Origin: Candidatus Nomurabacteria bacterium GW2011_GWE2_34_25
GTDB taxonomy: Bacteria > Patescibacteriota > Minisyncoccia > Phycocordibacterales > UBA9973
Direction: 5' to 3'
NCBI GenBank assembly: GCA_000990325.1
Contig: LBPS01000005.1
Coordinates: forward strand, 17,161-81,160
Length of the DNA: 64,000 nucleotides
Shown piece after piece: positions 6,421 through 52,231 of the stretch; the first letter of the stretch is position 1, and each line of letters starts with the position of its first letter. The position numbers and the translations under genes are program-made. The notes beneath the pieces were generated by a model that worked only from the letters and a program-made list of their open reading frames with translations, did no database searches and was not told the origin of the DNA.

Positions 6421-6440
6421 TAAACTCATCTCTAGTTGTT

Positions 6441-7153
6441 TCCAGCCTTGCTGGTAAAATTATGCATGATATAATACAAAAATGTCAATACGTAAGGTAA
6501 ATTTTGTTCACGGGGAATATTATCACATATATAATCGTGGAAATAGTAAACAAAAAATATTTCAAGATAAGGAAGATTATGAATATTTTCTTAAATTGCT
6601 TTTTATTGCAAATGGTGAAGAAAAATTTAAATTTCATTTTTTAGAAGGTAATGTTTATGAAGCTAAAAGAGGGAATCAACTTGTTGGTATTGGTGCTTAT
6701 GTTTTAATGCCAAATCATTTCCATATACTTATAACCGAAACCCAAGAAGGTGGTATAAGTAAATTTTTACATAAAGTTTCAAGTGGTTATTCTCACTATT
6801 ATAATAAAAAATACGAAAGAACAGGATCTTTATTTGAAGGAAAGTTCAAATCAGAATATATAGATAATAATCGTTATTTTAAATATCTGTTCTCATATAT
6901 TCATCTAAATCCTATTAAGTTGATTCAGAAAAATTGGAAAGAAGAGGGTATCAAGGAGAAAGAAAATATTTTGTATTTTCTTAATGATTATAAATATTCT
7001 AGTTATAAAGATTATTTAAATATATCTAGACAAGAAAATTTAATTCTTAATAGAAAAGATTTTCCCAACTATTTTTCATCAAAAAATACATTTTTAAAAG
7101 AAATATTTGACTGGATTAAGATAGAATTGTAAAATTTTACCAGCAAGGCTGGA
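6441..7153 (+). mobile_element. RAYT-type (IS200-like Y1 transposase) unit bounded by 21-bp perfect inverted REP-like hairpin repeats
   Basis: 6441-6461 TCCAGCCTTGCTGGTAAAATT is the exact reverse complement of 7133-7153. Each arm contains the hairpin CCAGC-CTT-GCTGG. Confidence 0.7.
6482..7132 (+). CDS. IS200/REP-associated tyrosine (Y1, HuH) transposase-like protein
   Basis: YHIYNRGN...KIF, HuH motif LMPNHFHILI, ...RTGSLFEGKFKS... and a catalytic-Tyr region YIHLNPIK. This matches the Y1_Tnp (IS200-like) / RAYT fold. Confidence 0.75.
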   Translation: MSIRKVNFVHGEYYHIYNRGNSKQKIFQDKEDYEYFLKLLFIANGEEKFKFHFLEGNVYEAKRGNQLVGIGAYVLMPNHFHILITETQEGGISKFLHKVSSGYSHYYNKKYERTGSLFEGKFKSEYIDNNRYFKYLFSYIHLNPIKLIQKNWKEEGIKEKENILYFLNDYKYSSYKDYLNISRQENLILNRKDFPNYFSSKNTFLKEIFDWIKIEL

Positions 7154-7214
7154 ATAATATGATTTTTAAAAACAAAGACTTGAAAAAGTCTCTATTTTTG
7201 TATAAGATAAGAAT

Positions 7215-7868
7215 ATGAAAGATGAAGAAATAATAGATAATGAGAAATCTACAGAGGAAAAAGAAAGTATTATAAAGAGAGAAGATCGTTTTAATCCCAT
7301 TGAACTGTCTTCTGGGGAACTTCACGTTGAACCAGACATGATATATGTTGATAGTGATGAAGATGGAGATGCATTGCCATCAAAAGATGTTGTAAAAAAA
7401 CTACGTGAAGAATTAAAAACTTTAAGAAAGGAGAAAGAAGAATATTTGACAGGCTGGCAGAGAGCGAAAGCAGACTATGTGAATTTACAGAAAGAGCTTG
7501 ATTTAGCCCGAATAAATATATCTATTTTAACTAAAGAAAAAATGGTAGAGAAGTTGCTTCCAAGTCTCGATAGTTTCGAGATGGCGTTTTCAAATAAAGA
7601 ACATTGGGAGAAAATAGACAAAGATTGGCAAAATGGCATAACTTCTATATATCAGCAACTTACCTCTGGGTTATCTGAAGCAGGAATTGAAAAAATAGAT
7701 CAGATTGGAATTCCATTTGATCCTAACGTTCATCAGTCTATAAGCATCGTAGCTACAGAAGACCAGACGAAAGATCACACGGTAGAAAAAGTTCTACAAG
7801 TAGGATATAAAATAGGAGAAAGAGTTATTCGCCCAGCCAAAGTCACTATTTTTGAATACAAGAAATAA
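7215..7868 (+). CDS. grpE: nucleotide exchange factor GrpE
   Basis: Coiled-coil N-terminus, then LTGWQRAKADYVN...VIRPAKVTIF, the GrpE signature. It lies upstream of dnaK. Confidence 0.9.
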   Translation: MKDEEIIDNEKSTEEKESIIKREDRFNPIELSSGELHVEPDMIYVDSDEDGDALPSKDVVKKLREELKTLRKEKEEYLTGWQRAKADYVNLQKELDLARINISILTKEKMVEKLLPSLDSFEMAFSNKEHWEKIDKDWQNGITSIYQQLTSGLSEAGIEKIDQIGIPFDPNVHQSISIVATEDQTKDHTVEKVLQVGYKIGERVIRPAKVTIFEYKK

Positions 7869-8367
7869 ATTCTTTTTCGGTTTCTTCATCTATTTTGTCT
7901 GTCACTATAATTATAAGTTCAGTGGAGAGATTTAAATCCTTTTTTATATTTGTAAAGAGATGTTCGAAAGGGTACATAGATATCCAGACAGAATTTTTCA
8001 AGCAGGCGAAGCCTGCTTTCTTAAGCAAGTAACGAAGTGCTTCACGTTCGCTCTTTCTATCCTCAGGCATATCAAGTAGAATTATTCTCCAAAATCCGTC
8101 CCAGGTATTGCTAATAAGAGCATTCTCACATTCAAGCTTCAAACTATTTGCTCGTTTTTTACCTTCTTTTGTGAGCTTTGTATATTGATTTTGCCCTGAA
8201 TATATACTTTCTATCAATCCTGCATCCTTTAGACCCTTTATAGAACGATTTAAGGCATATTGGCTATCCTTATCAAGGACTATCTTTTTTTCTAGTTCTC
8301 CAGCAGATATTGCTGGTTTTTCTGATAGGATTTTTATAATTTTCTTTGAAAAATCACGCTTTTTCAT
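7846..8367 (-). CDS. PaaX-like winged-helix transcriptional regulator
   Basis: C-terminal TWDGFWRIILLDMPEDRKSEREALRYLLKKAGFACLKNSVWISMYP matches the PaaX C-terminal domain pattern (WDGxW...PE...R..LR..L...GF..L.NSVW..P). It is divergent from dnaK. Confidence 0.55.
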   Translation of the reverse strand: MKKRDFSKKIIKILSEKPAISAGELEKKIVLDKDSQYALNRSIKGLKDAGLIESIYSGQNQYTKLTKEGKKRANSLKLECENALISNTWDGFWRIILLDMPEDRKSEREALRYLLKKAGFACLKNSVWISMYPFEHLFTNIKKDLNLSTELIIIVTDKIDEETEKEFISCIQK

Positions 8368-8433: not shown

Positions 8434-8485
8434 TCAAAAATTAAAGTTAGTATATAATGAGATAGTGTTTAAAAATAATTAACTT

Positions 8486-8555
8486 CGCAGAAATATTAAA
8501 ATTTTCACAGCTTTACCCTAAAGGGCTCCGACGCTGATAAAAATTTTAACATTTC
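8486..8555 (+). repeat. conserved upstream motif, copy 1 (upstream of dnaK)
   Basis: GCTTTACCC-loop-GGG...ACG...TTTnAACATTTnTnCTCCGTTA, enclosed by an inverted repeat gcagaaatattaaaattttcacag / ctgataaaaattttaacatttctgc. The second copy is at 38161-38233. Confidence 0.6.
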
Positions 8556-8594
8556 TGCTCCGTTAATAATATTATTAATTAATTATAAAAACAT

Positions 8595-10490
8595 ATGAGT
8601 AAAATTATAGGTATCGATTTGGGTACAACAAATAGTGCAGTGGCTATCATTGAAGGTGGTCAACCAAAAATTATTGAGAATATCGAGGGTGCTCGTACAA
8701 CTCCATCAGTGGTAGCAATTACCAAGAATGGTGATCGTATGGTGGGTCTTCTAGCGAAGCGTCAAGCAGTGACGAATCCTGAAAATACTGTTTACGGTAT
8801 TAAGAGATTCATTGGTCACATGTACGATGATCCAGAAATTCAGAAAGACGAGAAGACTATTCCTTACAAAATTCAGAAAGGAAGTACTGGTGGAGTAGAA
8901 ACAAAGATTGGAGATAGTTGGCTACGCCCAGAAGAGATTTCCGCTATGATTTTAAGTAAGATTAAGGCAGATGTAGAAGCAAAGCTCGGTGAGAAGATTA
9001 CTGAAGCAGTTATTACAGTTCCTGCATATTTCAACGATGCTCAGAGAAAGGCTACAAAAGACGCAGGGATCATCGCAGGACTTGATGTAAAACGTATTAT
9101 CAATGAACCTACTGCAGCTGCTCTTGCTTATGGATTTAATACAAAGAAAAATGAGAAGATTGTTGTCTACGACTTTGGAGGAGGTACGTTTGACGTGTCA
9201 GTTCTTGAAGTCGGCGATGATGTTATTGAAGTGAAGTCTACCGATGGCGATTCACACATGGGTGGTGAAGACATTGACCAGAAAATTGTGAAGTGGATTG
9301 CCGATGAATACAAGAAAGAATCAGGTATAGATGTTACTAAAGATATGCTCGCATTGCAACGTCTAAAGGAGGCTGCTGAGAAGACAAAGCATGAACTTTC
9401 AACAACAACAGATTCAGAAATAAATATTCCATTTATTACTTCAGATGCATCAGGACCAAAACATTTACTCTTGAAAATGTCTCGTGCGGTTCTAGAGTCT
9501 CTTGCAGAAGAGTATGTAACTCGTTCGATAGAAATTACAAAAAGAGCAGTTGAAGCTTCTCCATTTAAAATGGATGAAATTCATGAGATCATATTGGTTG
9601 GAGGTCAGACAAGAATGCCAAAGATTGTGGAAGAAGTAAAGAAATTGTTTGGTAAAGAACCAAATCGTTCAATCAATCCAGATGAAGTAGTAGCTCTCGG
9701 TGCTGCAGTACAAGCTGGAGTCCTACAGGGCGACGTACGCGACGTTCTTCTTCTAGACGTTATTCCACTATCTCTTGGAATAGAAACTCTTGGGAGGGTC
9801 GCCACAAAGCTCGTAGAACGCAACACAACCATACCTTCATCTAAGTCACAAATATTCTCAACTGCCGCAGACAATCAGACAAGCGTAGAAATACACATTA
9901 CTCAAGGTGAGCGTCCAATGGCAAGTGACAACAAGTCTCTCGGTAGATTTATCTTAGATGGTATTCCACCTTCACCACGAGGTATTCCTCAGGTGGAAGT
10001 TACCTTCGATGTAGATGCCAATGGAATCTTAAATGTGAAAGCCATGGACAAAGCTTCAGGCAAAGTTCAGTCAATTCGTATTGAAGCAAGTTCAGGACTT
10101 ACAGAAGCAGATATTAAAAAGATGCGAGATGAAGCAGAAGCTCATGCTGAAGAAGACGCTAAAAAGAAAGAATTAGCTGATCATAAGAATACAGCTGAAA
10201 TGATGATTTTCACAGCTGAGAAATCAGTCAAAGAATATGGCGACAAAGTTACTCCAGAAATAAAGACAGAAATAGAAAGTAAAATAACTGCGTTAAAAAC
10301 TGCAAAAGAAGGCAACGACATGGAAGCTATAAAGAAAGCAACAGAAGAACTTTCAAATGAAATGTCGAAAATTGGCGATAAGGCTCCAGAAGAGCAAGGC
10401 CCAGAAATAAGAGATGCGGAAACTACTGAAAGTAGTGCAGGTGCTGACAAAGGAAGTGCAGAAGTAAATGAAAATCCAGAACAGAAATAG
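8595..10490 (+). CDS. dnaK: molecular chaperone DnaK (Hsp70)
   Basis: [18 protein letters not shown], and 631 aa in length. Confidence 0.97.
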
Positions 10491-10514: not shown

Positions 10515-10623
10515 CTGAAAACAGCTTCTCCTCTCGGGTCCGCATAATTTCTTGCTAGAAATTTGCTCATTGCTCGGCTCGTCAGCCTGCGCCGGCCCCT
10601 CGCTGAAAACTATTTTCATGCAG
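10515..10623 (+). ncRNA. conserved structured intergenic element, copy 1 (after dnaK)
   Basis: Core GGGTCCGCATAATTTCTTGCTAGAAATTTGCTCATTGCTC... ending CGCCGGCCCCT. The 40-nt core is identical to the copy at 49744-49783. Flanking terminal stems are complementary but differ in sequence between the two copies (covariation). Confidence 0.5.
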
Positions 10624-19357: not shown

Positions 19358-19405
19358 CAAAAATTAAAATGCACTAGGTCTTGCCTAGTGCATTTTAATT
19401 TTTCA
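19358..19405. terminator. bidirectional terminator between the kinase gene (+) and cysS (-)
   Basis: aaaattaaaatgcactagg-tcttg-cctagtgcattttaatttt, a long perfect hairpin flanked by A/T runs. Confidence 0.8.
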
Positions 19406-24141: not shown

Positions 24142-24756
24142 TTATGCTCTATTTCTTAATGCATTTTTGATTGTTTCAGAGTCTGAGTATTCTAGTTCTG
24201 TGCCGGTGGAGAGGCCTCGGCCGAGAGAGACAATGTTGAAACTGTATTTATCTTTTAAGGGCGTTAGTATTTCACGTAAATACATATCAGTGTGCTCACC
24301 TTGAGGGTTTAATGACAGAGCAATGATAACTTCTTTTAACCCATTTTGCTTGACTTGATTTTCAATATTACGGAGAAGTTCTTTTGTTCGGACATAGTTG
24401 GGGGTATCTTTGGTAACTATTGGCACAAGACCACCTAATATAAAATACATGCCACTATAATTACGACTTCTTCTTATATTTTCATAGTCAGCATCTTTTT
24501 CAACAATTAGAAGGGAGGTCTTGTCGGTTTTAGGATTACTACACACATCACAAAGTTGGTCTTGAGTCGACTGGAAGAATAGGAAGCAAGAAGGGCACTG
24601 GTGAATAGTATTTTTCAAATCAAGAATTTTATCTCCGAGTTCTTTCACATAACTTGGATTTTTGTGTAGCAAAAAATACACAAAACGCTTGGCTTGCCTC
24701 TCGCCAATCCCTGGAAATTCTTTAAAATGTTCTGTAAGTTTATTAATCGGATCCAT
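24142..24756 (-). CDS. recR: recombination protein RecR
   Basis: N-terminal HhH (FKEFPGIGERQAKRFVYFLL), a C4 zinc finger CPSC...CDVC, and a Toprim domain. The start is set to MDPINK; the track's GTG extension runs into the palindrome. Confidence 0.9.
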   Translation of the reverse strand: MDPINKLTEHFKEFPGIGERQAKRFVYFLLHKNPSYVKELGDKILDLKNTIHQCPSCFLFFQSTQDQLCDVCSNPKTDKTSLLIVEKDADYENIRRSRNYSGMYFILGGLVPIVTKDTPNYVRTKELLRNIENQVKQNGLKEVIIALSLNPQGEHTDMYLREILTPLKDKYSFNIVSLGRGLSTGTELEYSDSETIKNALRNRA

Positions 24757-24765
24757 ATGTTTACC

Positions 24766-24807
24766 GAAGCCTTGCTTCGGTGAGCTCACCGAAGCAAGGC
24801 TTCGGTA
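24766..24807. repeat. 42-nt perfect palindrome (REP-like double hairpin) between dnaB and recR
   Basis: CCGAAGCCTTGCTTCGGTGA-GC-TCACCGAAGCAAGGCTTCGG. Each arm also self-folds as CCGAAGC-CTT-GCTTCGG, which has the same CTTGCT core as the RAYT-flanking hairpin. Confidence 0.7.
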
Positions 24808-24833
24808 ACGCTAATAAATGCTAATAAATTTAA

Positions 24834-36448: not shown

Positions 36449-36530
36449 GCCCGAGTGGCGGAACTGGTATACGCGCACGACTTAAAATCGTGTCTCGTAA
36501 GGGATGTGGGTTCGATTCCCACCTCGGGCA
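36449..36530 (+). tRNA. tRNA-Leu (anticodon UAA)
   Basis: Hand-folded: acceptor GCCCGAG/CTCGGGC, anticodon stem CACGA/TCGTG with loop CTTAAAA, a 13-nt variable arm (class II), T-arm GTGGG-TTCGATT-CCCAC. No encoded CCA. Confidence 0.85.
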
Positions 36531-36601: not shown

Positions 36602-36687
36602 GAGGTGGAAATCGAAAGACTTTTTGTTCTCTGGTATTAACCAGAGCAAAAAGTACCAGCGACCATAGGGCGAGATACTCCCACCTC
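36602..36687 (+). ncRNA. candidate structured RNA element between tRNA-Leu and gatB
   Basis: Closed by GAGGTGG...CCACCTC. The interior has GACTTTTTG/CAAAAAGT and CTCTGGT-atta-ACCAGAG helices. Long hairpins at 36521-36600 precede it. Confidence 0.3.
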
Positions 36688-36726: not shown

Positions 36727-38142
36727 ATGTCAAAAGAATACTATACTACCATCGGCCTTGAGATACATGCGGAACTAAATACCAATTCTAAAATGTTTTG
36801 TGGTTGCAAGAACGACCCAGACGAAGTAAAACCAAATGTAAATATCTGCCCAGTTTGTATGGCTCATCCTGGTACTCTGCCTGTTATAAACAAGAAGGCA
36901 GTAGAGAGCGTTATAAAGGTAGGGCTTGCGCTCGGGGCCAATATTGCAGACTTTACAGAATTTGATAGAAAAAATTACTTTTATCCAGATATTCCAAAAG
37001 CTTACCAGATCTCACAATATAAATACCCAATCGTTTCTGGTGGCTCTCTTAAGGGAGTAGACATTACTCGTGTGCACCTAGAAGAAGATACCGCTACAAG
37101 TAAACATGACAGAGGGGATTATTCTCTTGTAGATTTTAATCGATGTGGGGTGCCTTTGATGGAGCTTGTGACCGAACCAGTAATTCATTCTTCTAAACAA
37201 GCTGGGGACTTCGGGAGAGAATTACAAACAGTCCTTCGGTACTTAGGAGTATCTGAAGCTAATATGGAAAAAGGTCAGATGAGAGTAGAACTCAACATTT
37301 CAATATCAGAAGACCCTAAGGTTTTTGGTACAAAGGTAGAAGTTAAAAATATTAATTCTTTCAAGGCGATGGAGCGTGCGGCAGAATATGAGATAAAAAG
37401 AATGTCCGCACTACTTGATACAGGAGAAGGAGATAAAATAGTTCAGGAAACTCGTGGTTGGGATGAAAGTAAACAGTCTACCTTCTCTCAGCGAAAGAAA
37501 GAAAATGCCAACGACTATAGATACTTCCCAGATCCAGATTTACCAAAACTATTTTTAAGTAAAGTTTTTGATATAGAAAAGATGAGAAGTGAACTTCCAG
37601 AACTTCCAGAAGCAAGAAGAAATAGATATAGGAATGATTGTGGAATTAAAGATGAAGATATAGAGAGTTATATTGTGGACAAAGAACTTGGCGACTGGTT
37701 CGAGAAAGTAGCAGGGGAGCTAAAAGATAAAAATAAAATTAAAATAGCCTCAAATTATATTACTTCTGATTATTTAGGCCTTAAAAAAGTAAATATGGAA
37801 GTCGGACTTCCATATGTTAAAAATTTTGCTGAGCTTATAGAGATGGTAGTAGAGAATAAAATTTCTTCTCGTGGAGCCAAAGATATCCTTGCTATGATAG
37901 TTATTAAAGATGAATCTCCACTTAAAGTAGCGACTGAAAAAGGGTTACTACAGAATCACGACGAAGGCGCACTCAAAGAAATAATAAAGAAAATTATAGA
38001 TGCCAACCCTACTGTTGTAGAAACCTACAAAGGAGGCAAAGAGAATGCTATAATGTCTCTAGTTGGTCAAGTTATGAAGGAAAGTAAAGGTAGTGCAAAT
38101 CCACAAATGGTTCAAAAATTATTAAAAGAATTATTAAGTTAA
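36727..38142 (+). CDS. gatB: Asp-tRNA(Asn)/Glu-tRNA(Gln) amidotransferase subunit B
   Basis: YYTTIGLEIHAELNTNSKMFCGCKN, the canonical GatB N-terminus, plus a C-terminal YqeY-like tail. Confidence 0.95.
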   Translation: MSKEYYTTIGLEIHAELNTNSKMFCGCKNDPDEVKPNVNICPVCMAHPGTLPVINKKAVESVIKVGLALGANIADFTEFDRKNYFYPDIPKAYQISQYKYPIVSGGSLKGVDITRVHLEEDTATSKHDRGDYSLVDFNRCGVPLMELVTEPVIHSSKQAGDFGRELQTVLRYLGVSEANMEKGQMRVELNISISEDPKVFGTKVEVKNINSFKAMERAAEYEIKRMSALLDTGEGDKIVQETRGWDESKQSTFSQRKKENANDYRYFPDPDLPKLFLSKVFDIEKMRSELPELPEARRNRYRNDCGIKDEDIESYIVDKELGDWFEKVAGELKDKNKIKIASNYITSDYLGLKKVNMEVGLPYVKNFAELIEMVVENKISSRGAKDILAMIVIKDESPLKVATEKGLLQNHDEGALKEIIKKIIDANPTVVETYKGGKENAIMSLVGQVMKESKGSANPQMVQKLLKELLS

Positions 38143-42798: not shown

Positions 42799-43788
42799 AT
42801 GCTTAATCAAAAATTAAAACTAAATACAAAAATATTTAATTCTGATGTAGAGAAGAAATCTACTCGTCTCGGCTTTGGTGAAGGGTTACTCATTGCTGGA
42901 ACACAAAATGAAAACATCGTAGGACTTTGTGCTGACTTAGTAGAATCTACTAAGATGAACTTATTTGCTGACAAATTCCCTGATAGATTTATAGAATTAG
43001 GAATTGCTGAACAAAACTTAGCGTCTGTGGCAAGTGGCATGGCTTCTATGGGCAAAATTCCTTTTATTGCTTCTTATGCAATTTATAGTCCTGGACGTAA
43101 TTGGGAACAAATACGCACAACTATTTGTTTTAATGGAGAACCTGTTAAGATTATCGGCACACATGCAGGTCTTTCTGTGGGTCCTGATGGAGGAAGCCAC
43201 CAATGCCTAGAAGACATTGCTCTTACTCGCGTACTTCCTAACATGGTAGTTATTTCTCCTTGTGACGCTATCGAAGCTAAGAAGGCAACTATTGTAATGT
43301 CAAAAACAAAAAGCCCGACATACCTACGGTGTGCCAGGAATGATACTCCAATAATAACAACAGAGGAAACTCCATTTGAAATAGGTAAAGCACAAATAGT
43401 TTTCCAGCCTGAAAATGGACTCGCCCAATTGGGAATAATCGCTACAGGACCATCAGTATACAATGCGCTAATAGTAGCTAAAAATTTAGAAAGTGAAGGA
43501 ATAAAGGTGAAGGTTATGAATCTATCCACTATAAAACCTTTAGACAGTGATGCTATTATGGCCTTAGCAAAAGAAACCAAAAAAATAGTAACAGTGGAAG
43601 ACCATCAAATTGCTGGCGGTATGGGAGGAGCTGTTGCTGAATGCCTAGCTCAAAACTATCCTACTAGAATAGAGTTTGTGGGAGTAAAAGACAAATTTGG
43701 ACAGTCAGGTATACCTGAAGAACTCGCAAAATATTACGAAATAGACCAAGAGGCGATACTTAGGGCTGTAAGAAAAATATTGAAATAA
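42799..43788 (+). CDS. transketolase, C-terminal (Pyr/C-terminal domain) subunit
   Basis: GIAEQNLASVASGMAS and FVGVKDKFGQSG. Confidence 0.9.
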   Translation: MLNQKLKLNTKIFNSDVEKKSTRLGFGEGLLIAGTQNENIVGLCADLVESTKMNLFADKFPDRFIELGIAEQNLASVASGMASMGKIPFIASYAIYSPGRNWEQIRTTICFNGEPVKIIGTHAGLSVGPDGGSHQCLEDIALTRVLPNMVVISPCDAIEAKKATIVMSKTKSPTYLRCARNDTPIITTEETPFEIGKAQIVFQPENGLAQLGIIATGPSVYNALIVAKNLESEGIKVKVMNLSTIKPLDSDAIMALAKETKKIVTVEDHQIAGGMGGAVAECLAQNYPTRIEFVGVKDKFGQSGIPEELAKYYEIDQEAILRAVRKILK

Positions 43789-43802
43789 AAATAATAAAAA
43801 AT

Positions 43803-43830
43803 AAGGAAGTCGGACTTCCTTATTTTTTAT
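43803..43830. terminator. bidirectional terminator between tkt (+) and the kinase gene (-)
   Basis: aaggaagtccggacttcctt perfect palindrome followed by a T run. Confidence 0.8.
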
Positions 43831-43835
43831 TACTT

Positions 43836-44834
43836 TTATTTAATTTGAGTTAGTTTATAATTTTCAGGAGCATTCGTTAAATATTCTTCTAATTTTTCTC
43901 TTGAGAGAAGTCCTTTTTGAGGTCCAACTTGTAAGACAACAGACATGGCATTGATAGGTCCCCACGTTAAGGCCTCTTTTAAATCTTTTTCTAATATTAA
44001 GGCCGAGACAACAGCCGAAGCAAAAGCATCACCAGCTCCCGTTGATTCAAAAGAGGATGTGCTGTATACAGGAATAAACCAGATATTGATTCCATCATCT
44101 AAATAAGCCCCCCTAAGCCCATCTGTCATTATTATATTCTTTGGACCAATAGACCTCAACATGGTCATCAATTTAACAGCATCATTTTCTTCGGTTTCTA
44201 AGATTTTTTGAGCTTCAACTAAATTACAGAAGAGTATTTCTGTTTTTTGATATATATCCCTTAAAGCTTCAATTCCAAGTTTAATTTGAAATGTTCCAGG
44301 TTGAAAAGCTAATTTTACCTCAGGAAATTTATTTAAATAATCATTTATTTCTTTGTGATAATCGATTGAATTTGAAGCTAACGACGAAAGATAAACCCAT
44401 TTAGCTTGAGGAACATCTTCACCTAAAGAATAAGGGAATTCTGTATGCTTCACAAGAATTGTTCGCTCAGTTTCGTACCAAAGAACAAAATGATAATTGG
44501 ACTCCATACCAGGAACTATTTTCATATGATCTACATTGACACCATCTTTCATTAAAGATTCTAAGTCTTGTTTGCCTACAGTATCATCCCCAATATAAGA
44601 AACGAGGGACGACTTGAGACCAAGCTTACTTACACCAACTGCTACATTGGGACTGTTGCCTACAGCATGGCATACTTCTGCAGATTCATAGGGTACCTTT
44701 TCTCCGAAACGAAAACATATCTTGCAATGTTCCCCCTGTAAATCACAATTGGCTTCTGCATCAATAATCTTTATAAATGGCTCAGTTGCTATATCTCCTA
44801 TAGCTAGAAAATCTATTTGTTTATCTTTATCCAT
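43836..44834 (-). CDS. PfkB-family carbohydrate kinase
   Basis: Ribokinase-like fold with a C-terminal TGAGDAF motif. Confidence 0.75.
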   Translation of the reverse strand: MDKDKQIDFLAIGDIATEPFIKIIDAEANCDLQGEHCKICFRFGEKVPYESAEVCHAVGNSPNVAVGVSKLGLKSSLVSYIGDDTVGKQDLESLMKDGVNVDHMKIVPGMESNYHFVLWYETERTILVKHTEFPYSLGEDVPQAKWVYLSSLASNSIDYHKEINDYLNKFPEVKLAFQPGTFQIKLGIEALRDIYQKTEILFCNLVEAQKILETEENDAVKLMTMLRSIGPKNIIMTDGLRGAYLDDGINIWFIPVYSTSSFESTGAGDAFASAVVSALILEKDLKEALTWGPINAMSVVLQVGPQKGLLSREKLEEYLTNAPENYKLTQIK

Positions 44835-49721: not shown

Positions 49722-49827
49722 ATCATAAATAGCTCTTCTCAGAGGGTCCGCATAATTTCTTGCTAGAAATTTGCTCATTGCTCAGTCCGTCGACCTCCGC
49801 CGGCCCCTCTGATAAGACTATTTATGA
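49722..49827 (+). ncRNA. conserved structured intergenic element, copy 2 (after rpmE)
   Basis: The same 40-nt core as 10536-10575, plus a conserved CGCCGGCCCCT. Terminal inverted repeats atcataaatag...cagaggg / ccctctg...ctatttatgat are perfect here. Confidence 0.5.
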
Positions 49828-51396: not shown

Positions 51397-51915
51397 ATGA
51401 AAAAACAGAAGAAACTTTTGTATGAGTTACCTGAGGTACTTTTTTATCAGTTTTTAAATTATTTGGGAATAAAAGATGTAAAGGCTTTTGTTCTTAAGTA
51501 CAAAAATGGTAGAGAATCAAAAATTGCTTGTCTGTATGCAACTTTACCTCGACATGGAAAATATGAAAATCCGACTCTCGTATTGTTAGATTTGAGAAGT
51601 AGAGTTAATGAAACTCAACTGATCATACTAACTGAACCTCCTGTAATTATAGATGGCGAGGTAAAAAATTTATGTAACTATGCAAACATTTCAGCAAAAC
51701 AAAATGGTAGTAAAGATGAGGTCTTTGATATTACATTAACTGCCAATATGTCATATCTTGGTTCTGCCACAATTGGAGATCCCTTCAACAGATTCTCTTT
51801 TCTTTATATGTTAGAACTATCACAAAAAGCTGATGAACTGTTCCATTCGAAACAATTTGAATGGGTAAGTCAATACAAGAAAGAATTATCAGAAAATTAT
51901 GTATTCTTGTATTAA
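51397..51915 (+). CDS. hypothetical protein
   Basis: 172-aa ORF; I recognise no motif. Confidence 0.3.
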   Translation: MKKQKKLLYELPEVLFYQFLNYLGIKDVKAFVLKYKNGRESKIACLYATLPRHGKYENPTLVLLDLRSRVNETQLIILTEPPVIIDGEVKNLCNYANISAKQNGSKDEVFDITLTANMSYLGSATIGDPFNRFSFLYMLELSQKADELFHSKQFEWVSQYKKELSENYVFLY

Positions 51916-51991: not shown

Positions 51992-52159
51992 ATCGCGAGT
52001 ACGCTTATCTCGCCCTACGGTAGCGGGTACTTTTCAATCTTCGATAATGAAAAGTCTTCCGATTCTCCTCACGGTTCGATTTACTAATCGCAAGATGCAA
52101 ACAAAGCAGTTTGTTTGCTCACGCGCACTTAAAAATCCCACAAGGGGATTTTTAAATTG

Positions 52160-52231
52160 TGCGTGTGCTTGGAATCGGACCAAGGACCTCTGTCTTATCA
52201 GGACAGCGTTCTACCACTGAACTACACACGC
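52160..52231 (-). tRNA. tRNA-Ile (anticodon GAU)
   Basis: Hand-folded from the reverse complement: acceptor GCGTGTG/CACACGC, D-arm GTTC-AGTGGTA-GAAC, anticodon stem CTGTC/GACAG with loop CTGATAA, T-arm CTTGG-TCCGATT-CCAAG. Confidence 0.85.

What the first reader, a model, noticed from the sequence alone, without database searches (positions are those of the whole stretch)
6441..7153. RAYT-type Y1 (HuH) transposase bounded by perfect 21-bp inverted REP-like hairpins
The gene has IS200-like HuH (HFH) and catalytic-Tyr motifs. It is bounded by TCCAGCCTTGCTGGTAAAATT (6441-6461) and its exact reverse complement (7133-7153). Each arm folds into a short GC hairpin, CCAGC-CTT-GCTGG. This is the architecture of REP-associated tyrosine transposases and their REPIN doublets, not classical IS200 ends. 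The unit sits immediately upstream of grpE, where hrcA would normally be.
Basis: seen in the sequence. Interest (0 to 1): 0.6.

Follow-up and report, generated by a model that had tools for sequence, protein, structure and literature searches.

The report
Domesticated Y1 transposase with cognate hairpins
A single-copy, vertically inherited relative of REP-associated tyrosine transposases in a tiny candidate-phyla-radiation (Nomurabacteria) genome is bracketed by two copies of a small DNA hairpin, and this gene-plus-hairpin unit recurs across Patescibacteria, extending a known kind of domesticated transposase system to a new lineage with an unusual hairpin.

Summary
A perfect 22-nt inverted repeat (6440-6461 / 7133-7154) brackets a 216-aa ORF (6482-7132) with an HuH motif (H79-F-H81) and Tyr139.

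The reading as a RAYT-like unit is largely right, but it is not a canonical RAYT/REP. The protein scores below NCBI's RAYT cut-off. Its nearest relatives found outside Patescibacteria are TIR-flanked tyrosine transposases (TIRYT, TnpA-Y1 subclass 2.1), and it lacks their C-terminal HTH.

In 81 Patescibacteria loci, homologues carry the same arrangement: a hairpin with a freely covarying stem and a conserved apex, AGG(C/T)CTTGCCT. There is no GTAG foot.
- The upstream copy ends 30-32 nt before the ATG. Its TTGCC doubles as the -35 of a leaderless promoter.
- The downstream copy abuts or includes the stop codon.

The gene is syntenic in relatives at 80-86% identity and is under purifying selection (dN/dS 0.10-0.20).

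Hairpins of this class also occur at low copy away from the gene. The window has an orphan at 19359-19403 and a doublet at 24761-24808. The orphan matches the hairpins flanking a second Y1 paralog that is apparently in the same genome, which is how REP/RAYT systems behave.

Verdict: a new variant of a known kind, of moderate interest.

The parts
6440..6461 (+). Left arm of the inverted repeat. It contains the hairpin 6442-6454 (CCA-GCCTTGC-TGG), with the apex motif GCCTTGC in 'forward' orientation.
   Evidence: The same element sits at the same distance from the ATG in L089/L090 and in 59 single copies plus 8 doublets among 81 homologous loci.
6448..6475 (+). Inferred promoter of the Y1 gene: -35-like TTGCTG (6448-6453, inside the hairpin), a 16-nt spacer, and an extended -10 TGATATAAT (6467-6475). 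The -10 ends 6 nt before the ATG, so the mRNA would be leaderless.
   Evidence: Read. Across loci the apex ends 30-32 nt before the ATG, the TTGCNN-to-TAnnnT spacer is most often 17 nt, and the -10 ends 6 nt before the ATG in 39 loci. The generic promoter scan did not call it, because the -35 matches only 3 of 6 positions. This is inference, not shown.
6482..7132 (+). Y1 (HuH) tyrosine nuclease/transposase-like gene, 216 aa: NHFH 78-81, catalytic Y139 in SYIHLNP, conserved SS 173-174.
   Evidence: AlphaFold model pLDDT 86. Foldseek top hit 4er8_A, E 2e-6. dN/dS 0.10-0.20.
7133..7154 (-). Right arm of the inverted repeat, starting directly after the TAA stop codon. It contains the hairpin 7140-7152, with the apex forward on the minus strand.
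   Evidence: A downstream same-stem hairpin is present in 52 of the 54 loci whose upstream stem is at least 5 bp, and 56 of 57 of these hairpins carry the same apex.
19359..19403 (+). Orphan hairpin of the same apex class (19-20 bp stem; core AAATGCACTAGGTCTTGCCTAGTGCATTT), between the convergent histidine-kinase and cysS genes. It matches the hairpins that flank a second Y1 paralog (P0272).
   Evidence: -19.6 kcal/mol, z -8.3. Paralog flanks in L114-L116. The same core occurs in at least 13 other gene-3'-end contexts in metagenomes.
24761..24808 (.). Orphan REPIN-like doublet: two hairpins ACCGAA-GCCTTGC-TTCGGT in inverted orientation, lying across the dnaB-recR junction; the recR ORF as listed from its first start codon (24142-24789) overlaps the left half.
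   Evidence: -28 kcal/mol, z -10.6. Comparable doublets flank the Y1 gene in L016, L021, L032, L038, L043 and L059.

Best explanation
This is a domesticated, chromosomally fixed Y1 (HuH) tyrosine nuclease gene of the RAYT/TIRYT kind, together with its cognate hairpin repeats. That is the REPtron/TIRtron architecture.

Shown:
- The protein has the Y1 fold and an intact HuH, Tyr and Asn-Pro catalytic signature. It evolves under purifying selection and is inherited vertically at the rpsI/grpE boundary.
- Homologues across Patescibacteria are bracketed by a hairpin whose stem covaries freely and whose apex, AGG(C/T)CTTGCCT, is conserved on both sides of the gene and at orphan sites.
- Paralogs each have their own stem type.
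- Copies of a paralog's hairpin occur at other gene ends.

Inferred:
- The enzyme recognises the folded 'forward' strand of the hairpin in single-stranded DNA, mainly through the apex. It nicks and rejoins DNA nearby with Tyr139 and the HuH-bound metal, as TnpA-REP and IS608 TnpA do.
- Because the apex TTGCC also serves as the -35 box of the gene's leaderless promoter, binding or hairpin extrusion at the upstream copy would autoregulate expression.
- Rare copying of hairpins to the 3' ends of other genes yields the low-copy orphans and doublets. These are then kept, in part as bidirectional terminators.
For: - Protein: Y1_Tnp above cut-off. HuH and Tyr align with 4er8. Invariant H79, H81, Y139, N143 and P144 in 22 homologues. 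Model pLDDT 86, with 4er8_A as the top PDB match, followed among Y1 enzymes by IS608 and ISDra2 TnpA.
- Fixed gene: the same site in all strains and in relatives at 86% and 80% identity, with the same hairpins. dN/dS 0.10-0.20 at dS 0.7-1.4. Paralogs within one genome are only 59-69% identical. No close relative in 2.9 million viral contigs and no PHROG match.
- Hairpins: 161 apex hairpins lie within 160 nt of the gene ends, against 31 elsewhere in 1.2 Mb. Covariation: 82% of cells paired, against 60% in shuffles (0 of 500 reach it) and 31-43% when slid; 498 double-change cells against 188. T.G pairs are tolerated only on the forward strand. A search by stem alone recovers the same 7-nt apex in 56 of 57 downstream hairpins and 20 of 21 distant ones. 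Only 2 of about 25 strong hairpin sites in the window have this apex, and the window has 5 apex hairpins against 0.1 expected.
- Dispersal: the orphan core occurs in 18 metagenome stretches; five of them (four separate Y1 genes) lie next to a Y1 gene, and about 13 are 2-40 nt after unrelated stop codons. P0272, whose longest contig has the same length as that of the window's protein (249,066 nt), is flanked by the hairpin found as an orphan at 19359.
- Closest relative examined outside Patescibacteria: the Sporomusa TIRYT has the same layout, with the left arm about 50 nt upstream and the right arm over the stop codon.
Against: - No biochemistry. Binding, cleavage and the cleavage site are all unknown.
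- No guide-like conserved tetranucleotide at the hairpin foot, so the IS608/TnpA-REP recognition logic may not carry over.
- The gene's own CCA-type hairpin has no further copy in the 64 kb, and copy numbers are low everywhere. Mobilisation, if it happens, is rare.
- Orphans could be scars left by lost Y1 genes rather than transposed hairpins. Direct-repeat flanks occur in 13 of 81 loci and would allow such deletion.
- The orphan beside cysS is conserved in position in relatives whose cysS is 81% identical, so it is old rather than recently moved.
- Conservation of the upstream apex is partly explained by -35 function.
Confidence: 0.62

Rival explanations
1. The hairpins are ordinary transcription signals: a promoter -35 embedded in a palindrome upstream, and a terminator downstream and at other gene ends. 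On this view they have nothing to do with the DNA activity of the Y1 protein, and the co-occurrence reflects only how small genes are punctuated in these genomes.
For: - TTGCC(T) sits 16-17 nt from a TAnnnT box that ends about 6 nt before the ATG.
- Orphans lie 2-40 nt after stop codons, often between convergent genes, with A and T runs around the stem.
- The orphan beside cysS is positionally conserved.
Against: - The same 7-nt apex is kept downstream of the gene and at distant sites, where it cannot be this gene's -35, and mostly in the opposite orientation.
- Other strong terminator-like hairpins in the window use unrelated loops.
- In L089 and L090 a separate canonical terminator precedes the upstream hairpin.
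- The hairpins flanking the window's gene have no T tail, and no terminator is called there.
- Apex hairpins are concentrated at Y1 gene ends, 161 against 31, and each paralog has its own stem.
Confidence: 0.17
2. The Y1 protein is a host factor that acts on or binds these hairpins wherever they are, for example as a hairpin-specific regulator or as a processor of single-stranded DNA at replication forks. It does not copy or move them. Orphan hairpins arise by loss of former Y1 genes or by duplication through other routes.
For: - Strong purifying selection and vertical inheritance, and a very large conserved family.
- Low copy number of hairpins.
- Direct-repeat flanks that would leave a solo hairpin after deletion.
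- Quentin et al. 2018 (PMC6006769) suggest diverse single-strand DNA editing roles for non-IS TnpA-Y1 subclasses.
Against: - An identical 31-nt hairpin in more than ten unrelated contexts needs some spreading mechanism.
- All catalytic residues are invariant, which argues for strand cleavage rather than mere binding.
- The apex flips orientation between close relatives while the stem stays intact, which suggests enzymatic turnover.
Confidence: 0.15
3. It is an autonomous IS200/IS605-type insertion sequence whose subterminal hairpins are its transposon ends.
For: A Y1_Tnp domain, hairpins at both ends, and flanking hairpins in direct orientation in 13 of 81 loci, as at IS608 ends.
Against: - One copy in the window, and always the same genomic context for the exact protein.
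- Syntenic in relatives at dS about 0.8.
- Paralogs are 59-69% identical, never near-identical.
- The tyrosine motif is Y---NP, not the Y---Q of IS200 transposases.
- No tnpB neighbour and no conserved partner gene.
- Here the ends are inverted, not direct.
Confidence: 0.04

Closest known systems
TIRtrons / TIRYT (TIR-associated tyrosine transposases; Di Nocera et al. 2013, PMC3733652), which correspond to TnpA-Y1 subclass 2.1 (Quentin et al. 2018, PMC6006769) and RAYT Group 1 (Bertels et al. 2017, PMC5581495)
   Same: - Motif signature: NH[YF]H, Y[IV]HLNP and a conserved SS in the tail.
- 27-33% identity to plasmid-borne members, including a Sporomusa protein with Y1_Tnp plus Bac_DnaA_C and GGGGTCAG terminal inverted repeats.
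- Low copy number, with divergent paralogs.
- The gene is bracketed by inverted repeats, the left arm tens of nt upstream and the right arm at or over the stop codon.
- The flanking repeats are sometimes members of small repeat families.
   Different: - No C-terminal HTH (DnaA_C-like) domain; the protein is 216 aa against a median of 238.
- An extra segment of about 19 aa before the HuH strand.
- The repeats are short hairpins with a conserved apex and covarying stems, not GGGGWSAS-type TIRs.
- Quentin et al. found no REP-like structures for subclass 2.1, whereas here they are the rule.
REPtrons: RAYT / TnpA-REP with REP and REPIN sequences (Nunvar 2010; Bertels & Rainey 2011, PMC3116915; structure 4er8)
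   Same: - A single-copy, vertically inherited Y1 enzyme with the Y---NP motif, and the best structural match.
- The gene is flanked by inverted hairpins.
- Each paralog has its own hairpin type.
- Inverted doublets occur.
- Extragenic copies lie at gene 3' ends.
   Different: - No 5' GT[AG]G foot; the conserved part is the apex.
- Copy number is a few per genome rather than tens to hundreds.
- The protein is below the NCBIfam RAYT cut-off and only 14% identical to 4er8 in the structural alignment.
- The host is Patescibacteria rather than Proteobacteria.
IS200/IS605 TnpA (IS608, ISDra2)
   Same: The Y1 HuH fold, and recognition of subterminal DNA hairpins on one strand. In 13 of 81 loci the two hairpins are in direct orientation, as at IS608 ends.
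   Different: Not an insertion sequence: no multiple identical copies, no Y---Q motif, no tnpB, a fixed syntenic position, and inverted ends in the window.

Membership tests
Y1 HuH (Y1_Tnp) superfamily | HuH metal-binding motif and a single catalytic Tyr on the Y1 fold | tested here: met
   Pfam PF01797 at 33 bits against a cut-off of 23. H79-F-H81 and Y139 align with 4er8 and are invariant in 22 homologues. AlphaFold model pLDDT 86, with Foldseek hits to 4er8, IS608 and ISDra2 TnpA.
Canonical RAYT / REPtron (TnpA-Y1 subclasses 2.2, 2.4, 2.5, 2.7, 2.8) | Class-2 tyrosine motif Y---NP, low copy number and vertical inheritance | tested here: met
   YIHLNP. One copy in the window; syntenic in relatives at 80-86% identity. 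Paralogs 59-69% identical.
Canonical RAYT / REPtron | Protein reaches the curated RAYT model (NCBIfam NF047646 equivalog) | tested here: not met
   46.3 bits against a cut-off of 80. phmmer E-value to 4er8 is only 0.04.
Canonical RAYT / REPtron | Gene flanked by cognate palindromes in inverted orientation | tested here: met
   Window: 22-nt perfect inverted repeat. Among 81 loci, 44 are inverted, 13 direct and 6 have doublets on both sides.
Canonical RAYT / REPtron | REP has a conserved 5' GT[AG]G tetranucleotide at the foot of the hairpin | tested here: not met
   No conserved position in the 10 nt on either side of the foot in 146 hairpins. Conservation lies at the apex, AGGYCTTGCCT.
Canonical RAYT / REPtron | The flanking palindrome belongs to an abundant extragenic repeat family in the same genome | tested here: inconclusive
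   The gene's own hairpin is absent from the rest of the 64 kb. Apex-class hairpins are present at low copy: 5 in the window against 0.1 expected. One orphan matches the flanks of a second paralog. A whole-genome count was not possible.
TIRYT / TnpA-Y1 subclass 2.1 / RAYT Group 1 | Motifs NH[YF]H or NHVH, Y[IV]HLNP or YIELNP, and SS in the proximal tail | tested here: met
   NHFH, YIHLNP, and S173-S174 invariant, compared with Table 1 of PMC6006769. 31% identity to a Sporomusa TIRYT.
TIRYT / TnpA-Y1 subclass 2.1 | C-terminal HTH-like domain (Bac_DnaA_C, HTH_23 or HTH_28) | tested here: not met
   No Pfam hit in residues 147-216 even at E = 10. The Sporomusa relative does show Bac_DnaA_C.
TIRYT / TIRtron | Flanking terminal inverted repeats, most with the GGGGWSAS motif | tested here: not met
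   Inverted repeats are present, but the motif is AGGYCTTGCCT inside a hairpin. GGGGTCAG is seen only at the Sporomusa locus.
IS200/IS605 insertion sequences (subclass 1.1) | Y---Q motif, several near-identical copies, often tnpB, hairpins in direct orientation | tested here: not met
   Y---NP motif. No second copy in the window. Paralogs are at most 69% identical. No conserved neighbour gene.

The most novel reading that the evidence does not exclude
Across Paceibacteria, which have some of the smallest genomes and few known mobile elements, several paralogous Y1 nucleases each maintain a private family of hairpins. The conserved apex of these hairpins is at once the enzyme's recognition site and a portable -35 box, and the stem is a bidirectional terminator. 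On this reading a domesticated transposase seeds and polices promoter and terminator punctuation of transcription units. It would link the REP-less TIRYT proteins to REP-associated RAYTs in evolution, and it would use apex recognition, reminiscent of Rep-type origins, rather than the foot-guide recognition known for IS608 and TnpA-REP.
Probability: 0.15. Interest if true: 0.7.

Novelty: new variant of a known kind. Interest (0 to 1): 0.48.

Why it matters
RAYT/REPIN systems are the textbook case of a transposase and its non-autonomous elements persisting vertically inside a lineage. They are known almost entirely from Proteobacteria and a few other phyla.

Here the same logic appears in streamlined candidate-phyla-radiation genomes: a gene flanked by its own hairpins, paralog-specific hairpin types, doublets and orphans at gene ends. 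The protein branch involved (subclass 2.1 / TIRYT) was reported to have no REP-like partners. The hairpin is recognisable by its apex rather than by a GTAG foot.

This gives three things:
- a simple sequence rule, stem-AGGYCTTGCCT-stem, for annotating these elements in thousands of Patescibacteria MAGs;
- a small, well-defined protein-DNA pair for biochemistry;
- a possible link between a domesticated transposase and promoter and terminator architecture in leaderless transcription units.

Tried and rejected
- Further copies of the gene's own hairpin: searched the window with up to 2 mismatches and found none.
- A conserved guide or cleavage-type motif at the hairpin foot: none.
- A conserved partner gene or a passenger gene inside the hairpin-bounded unit: neighbours are unrelated housekeeping genes, with only partial recurrence of dnaK, grpE and cysS.
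- Known RNA families at the hairpins: none in Rfam.
- Phage origin: no PHROG match and no close relative in viral contigs.
- A C-terminal HTH domain: not detected.
- The generic promoter/terminator scan did not call the proposed promoter, nor any terminator at the flanks. The promoter is therefore argued from cross-locus spacing only.
- Literature searches for this family in the candidate phyla radiation or Patescibacteria found no description.
- The idea that the apex is simply a favoured terminator loop in this genome was rejected after a census of hairpins.
- The idea that apex conservation is only -35 conservation was rejected by the stem-only search.
The window's own genome is not a species representative there, so a whole-genome hairpin count could not be made.
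Full report
**1. Observation**

The window reads TTCCAGCCTTGCTGGTAAAATT at 6440-6461 and the exact reverse complement at 7133-7154. The repeat finder reports the pair as 27 nt at 93% complementarity. It is the longest perfect inverted repeat in the 64 kb for arms 100-1000 nt apart; 100 shuffles gave a mean of 13.6 and a maximum of 18.

Each arm holds CCAGC-CTT-GCTGG. This folds as single-stranded DNA at only about -4.3 kcal/mol (z -1.6 to -2.1). The individual hairpins are therefore unremarkable, and their significance comes from comparison with other loci. Between the arms lies one ORF, 6482-7132 (+), 216 aa.

**2. The protein**

- It matches Pfam Y1_Tnp at 33 bits against a cut-off of 23.
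- It matches NCBIfam 'REP-associated tyrosine transposase' at only 46 bits against a cut-off of 80.
- Its only meaningful PDB sequence hit is E. coli TnpA-REP (4er8, E = 0.04). There PNHFHIL aligns with PEHMHCI and SYIHLNPIK with DYIYINPVK.
- In 22 homologues H79, H81, Y139, N143, P144 and S173-S174 are invariant.
- An AlphaFold model built on that alignment has pLDDT 86 and pTM 0.87. Its best PDB match is 4er8_A (E 2e-6, TM-score 0.68 normalised to the target). IS608, ISDra2 and IS200 transposases come next among Y1 enzymes, interleaved with weaker-fitting Thg1 guanylyltransferase hits.

**3. Source and evolutionary behaviour**

The exact protein is annotated from Candidatus Nomurabacteria bacterium GW2011_GWF2_35_66 (Patescibacteria). 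It is found on 22 contigs, always in the context rpsI - EamA - Y1 - grpE - PaaX-like - dnaK.

More than 7,800 database proteins match at E <= 1e-3. In a library clustered at 50% identity, 271 representatives match at E <= 1e-30 and 18,871 at E <= 1e-3.

Relatives at 86% (P0002) and 80% (P0006) identity sit at the same rpsI/grpE boundary, while the neighbouring EamA and HD-domain genes differ. Among these syntenic orthologues dN/dS is 0.10-0.20 at dS 0.7-1.4.

Seven genomes in the species-representative set carry two copies, and these are only 59-69% identical. There is no conserved neighbour gene and no tnpB. There is no viral association. This is a fixed, selected gene, not an active insertion sequence.

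**4. Comparative anatomy of the flanks**

I fetched 80 loci encoding homologues at 53-74% identity from species-representative genomes and analysed their flanks.

Most carry a hairpin on each side with the apex G(C/T)CTTGC:
- Upstream, 59 of 81 loci have a single 'forward' copy and 8 have an inverted doublet. The apex ends 30-32 nt before the ATG in about 50 loci.
- Downstream, 52 loci have the inverted orientation, 16 the direct orientation, 7 a doublet and 6 none. The hairpin usually starts 0-25 nt after the stop codon, and often the TAG is part of the stem.
- In L089 and L090 the window's own arms are conserved on both sides, although synonymous sites differ at about 48%.

**5. Structure versus sequence**

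The conserved core is AGGYCTTGCCT. The window's lineage has CAGCCTTGCTG, a doubly compensated variant.

I aligned 150 distinct hairpins, selected only by their apex, and tested a 12-pair helix:

| Measure | Observed | Shuffled | Partners slid |
|---|---|---|---|
| Cells paired | 82% | 60% (0 of 500 shuffles reach the observed value) | 31-43% |
| Cells with changes on both sides | 498 | 188 | 98-185 |
| Covariation score | 0.59 | 0.21 | about 0.1 |

The second apex pair is T.G in 84 hairpins and C-G in 59. This is tolerated only on the forward strand and points to that strand as the one that folds.

No position within 10 nt of the hairpin foot is conserved, so the GT[AG]G guide of canonical REPs is absent.

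A search that used only the stem arms and allowed any apex recovered the same 7-nt apex in 56 of 57 downstream hairpins and in 20 of 21 distant hairpins. Apex conservation is therefore not explained by promoter function alone.

**6. Promoter overlap (inferred)**

In the window TTGCTG (6448-6453) lies 16 nt from TGATATAAT (6467-6475), and that box ends 6 nt before the ATG. Across loci the spacer is most often 17 nt and the -10 ends 6 nt before the ATG in 39 loci. This implies a leaderless mRNA whose -35 lies inside the hairpin.

The generic scan does not call this promoter, because the -35 matches only 3 of 6 positions. It does show a similar leaderless geometry for grpE (TTGAAA-17-TAAGAT ending at 7208, ATG at 7215).

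In L089 and L090 a separate canonical terminator precedes the upstream hairpin, so that hairpin is not the upstream gene's terminator.

**7. Dispersed copies**

- The window has five apex hairpins against 0.1 expected: the two flanks, a hairpin with a 19-20 bp stem at 19359-19403 between convergent histidine-kinase and cysS genes, and an inverted doublet at 24761-24808 across the dnaB-recR junction, overlapping the 5' end of the listed recR ORF.
- Only these two extra sites, out of about 25 strong hairpin sites in the window, use this apex.
- In 1.2 Mb of flanking DNA from other genomes, 161 apex hairpins lie at gene ends and 31 elsewhere. Most of the 31 are within about 1.2 kb and have the same stem.
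- A metagenome scan with the orphan's 21-nt core found 18 stretches. Five of them, representing four separate Y1 genes, flank a Y1 gene. About 13 lie 2-40 nt after unrelated stop codons and share a roughly 31-nt element, AAAATGCACTAGGTCTTGCCTAGTGCATTTT.
- Two of these are the orthologous cysS site in relatives whose cysS is 81% identical while the hairpin is unchanged.
- A second Y1 paralog, P0272, is 58% identical to the window's protein. Its longest contig has the same length, 249,066 nt, as the longest contig carrying the window's protein, so I infer it belongs to the same genome. It is flanked by exactly this ATGCACTAG-type hairpin, forward upstream at the usual distance and inverted over its stop codon, with a third copy after the next gene.

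So the orphan in the window is a copy of another resident paralog's cognate hairpin. That is how REP/RAYT pairs behave.

**8. Comparison with what is known**

Quentin et al. 2018 (PMC6006769) give motif signatures for the TnpA-Y1 subclasses. NHFH, YIHLNP and a tail SS fit subclass 2.1, which corresponds to Bertels Group 1 and to most TIRYTs of Di Nocera et al. 2013. For that subclass no REP-like structures were found, and the flanks are GGGGWSAS-type inverted repeats.

The best plasmid-borne relatives are 27-33% identical. One of them, from Sporomusa termitida, has Y1_Tnp plus Bac_DnaA_C and inverted repeats containing GGGGTCAG. Its left arm lies about 50 nt upstream and its right arm lies over the stop codon.

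The Patescibacteria family shares that layout. It lacks the HTH tail, has an extra segment before the HuH strand, and uses apex-conserved hairpins instead.

It is therefore filed as a new variant of the TIRtron/REPtron kind, not as a member of the canonical RAYT family. Three defining features of that family were tested and not met: the curated model score, the GTAG foot, and (inconclusively) high copy number.

I found no paper describing this family in the candidate phyla radiation or Patescibacteria.

**9. Mechanism**

Shown: an intact Y1 catalytic signature under selection; structure-constrained hairpins with a sequence-constrained apex at both gene ends and at orphan sites; paralog-specific stems; low-copy dispersal.

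Inferred:
- apex-directed recognition of the folded forward strand in single-stranded DNA;
- Tyr139-mediated nicking and rejoining;
- autoregulation through the -35 embedded in the hairpin;
- occasional copying of hairpins to gene ends, where they are retained as terminators.

**10. Rivals**

- Pure transcription signals (0.17).
- A hairpin-binding host factor without mobilisation, with orphans as scars of lost genes (0.15). This is plausible because 13 of 81 loci have direct-repeat flanks.
- An active IS200/IS605 element (0.04).

**11. Unexplained**

- The apex flips orientation between close relatives while the stem stays intact.
- The cysS orphan is perfectly conserved against 81% identity in the adjacent gene.
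- The window holds three stem types but only one Y1 gene. A fourth stem type lies inside the RNase HII gene next to the paralog.

Noticed in passing
window 10519-10615 and 49727-49823: Two copies (80% identical) of a GC-rich element of about 100 nt, one just after dnaK and one between rpmE and prfA. It folds strongly, best on the minus strand (z -4.1 and -6.7; the second copy also z -6.7 on the plus strand), and the two copies differ in the outer stem. There is no Rfam match. Its 35-nt core recurs only in same-species loci among those fetched. It may be a small structured RNA or a miniature repeat element.
   Followed up: partly
window 7846-8367 (-) and 8472-8573: A 173-aa protein with a winged-helix N-terminus and a PaaX_M (Cas2-like) domain sits between grpE and dnaK on the opposite strand, overlapping the last 23 nt of grpE. 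A 34-nt inverted repeat (8472-8505 / 8540-8573) lies just upstream of dnaK. No hrcA is present here. This may be an alternative chaperone-operon regulator and its operator.
   Followed up: no
window 7180-7215: grpE also appears to be leaderless: TTGAAA-17-TAAGAT ends at 7208 and the ATG is at 7215. This suggests that leaderless transcripts are common in this organism.
   Followed up: partly
window 37791-37818, 43783-43841, 51559-51586: A second small palindrome family with the core GGAAGT-CGG-ACTTCC, which includes a hairpin with a 19-bp stem at 43792-43832.
   Followed up: no
window 36649-36677 and 52006-52034: A 29-nt inverted repeat (90% complementary) lying about 120 nt downstream of each of the two tRNA genes (36449-36530 on the plus strand, 52160-52231 on the minus strand).
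   Followed up: no
L115 9386-9420 (same in L114 and L116): An apex-class hairpin with a fourth stem type (GCAGTTTGCCATAG-GCCTTGC-...) lies inside the called RNase HII gene (9267-9953), next to the second Y1 paralog. It may be an intragenic insertion of the kind reported for REPs.
   Followed up: no
L001-L005 compared with window 8595-10490: The dnaK gene is called at different lengths in different assemblies of the same organism: 644 aa, or split into 597+46 or 595+44 aa, against 631 aa in the window. This points to frameshift or assembly variation at its 3' end, next to the 100-nt repeat.
   Followed up: no
L080 9960-10700: A more distant homologue (53% identity, Yanofskybacteria) is flanked by hairpins with a different apex (CCACAGG-GTTAC-CCTGTGG). 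This suggests that protein and apex co-evolve at greater distances. The same locus holds a second, 46%-identical copy 9 kb upstream.
   Followed up: partly
L110 1387-1420 / 2339-2372: The Sporomusa termitida plasmid pSPTER carries a classical TIRYT unit: a 295-aa protein with Y1_Tnp plus Bac_DnaA_C, flanked by 34-nt inverted repeats that contain GGGGTCAG.
   Followed up: yes
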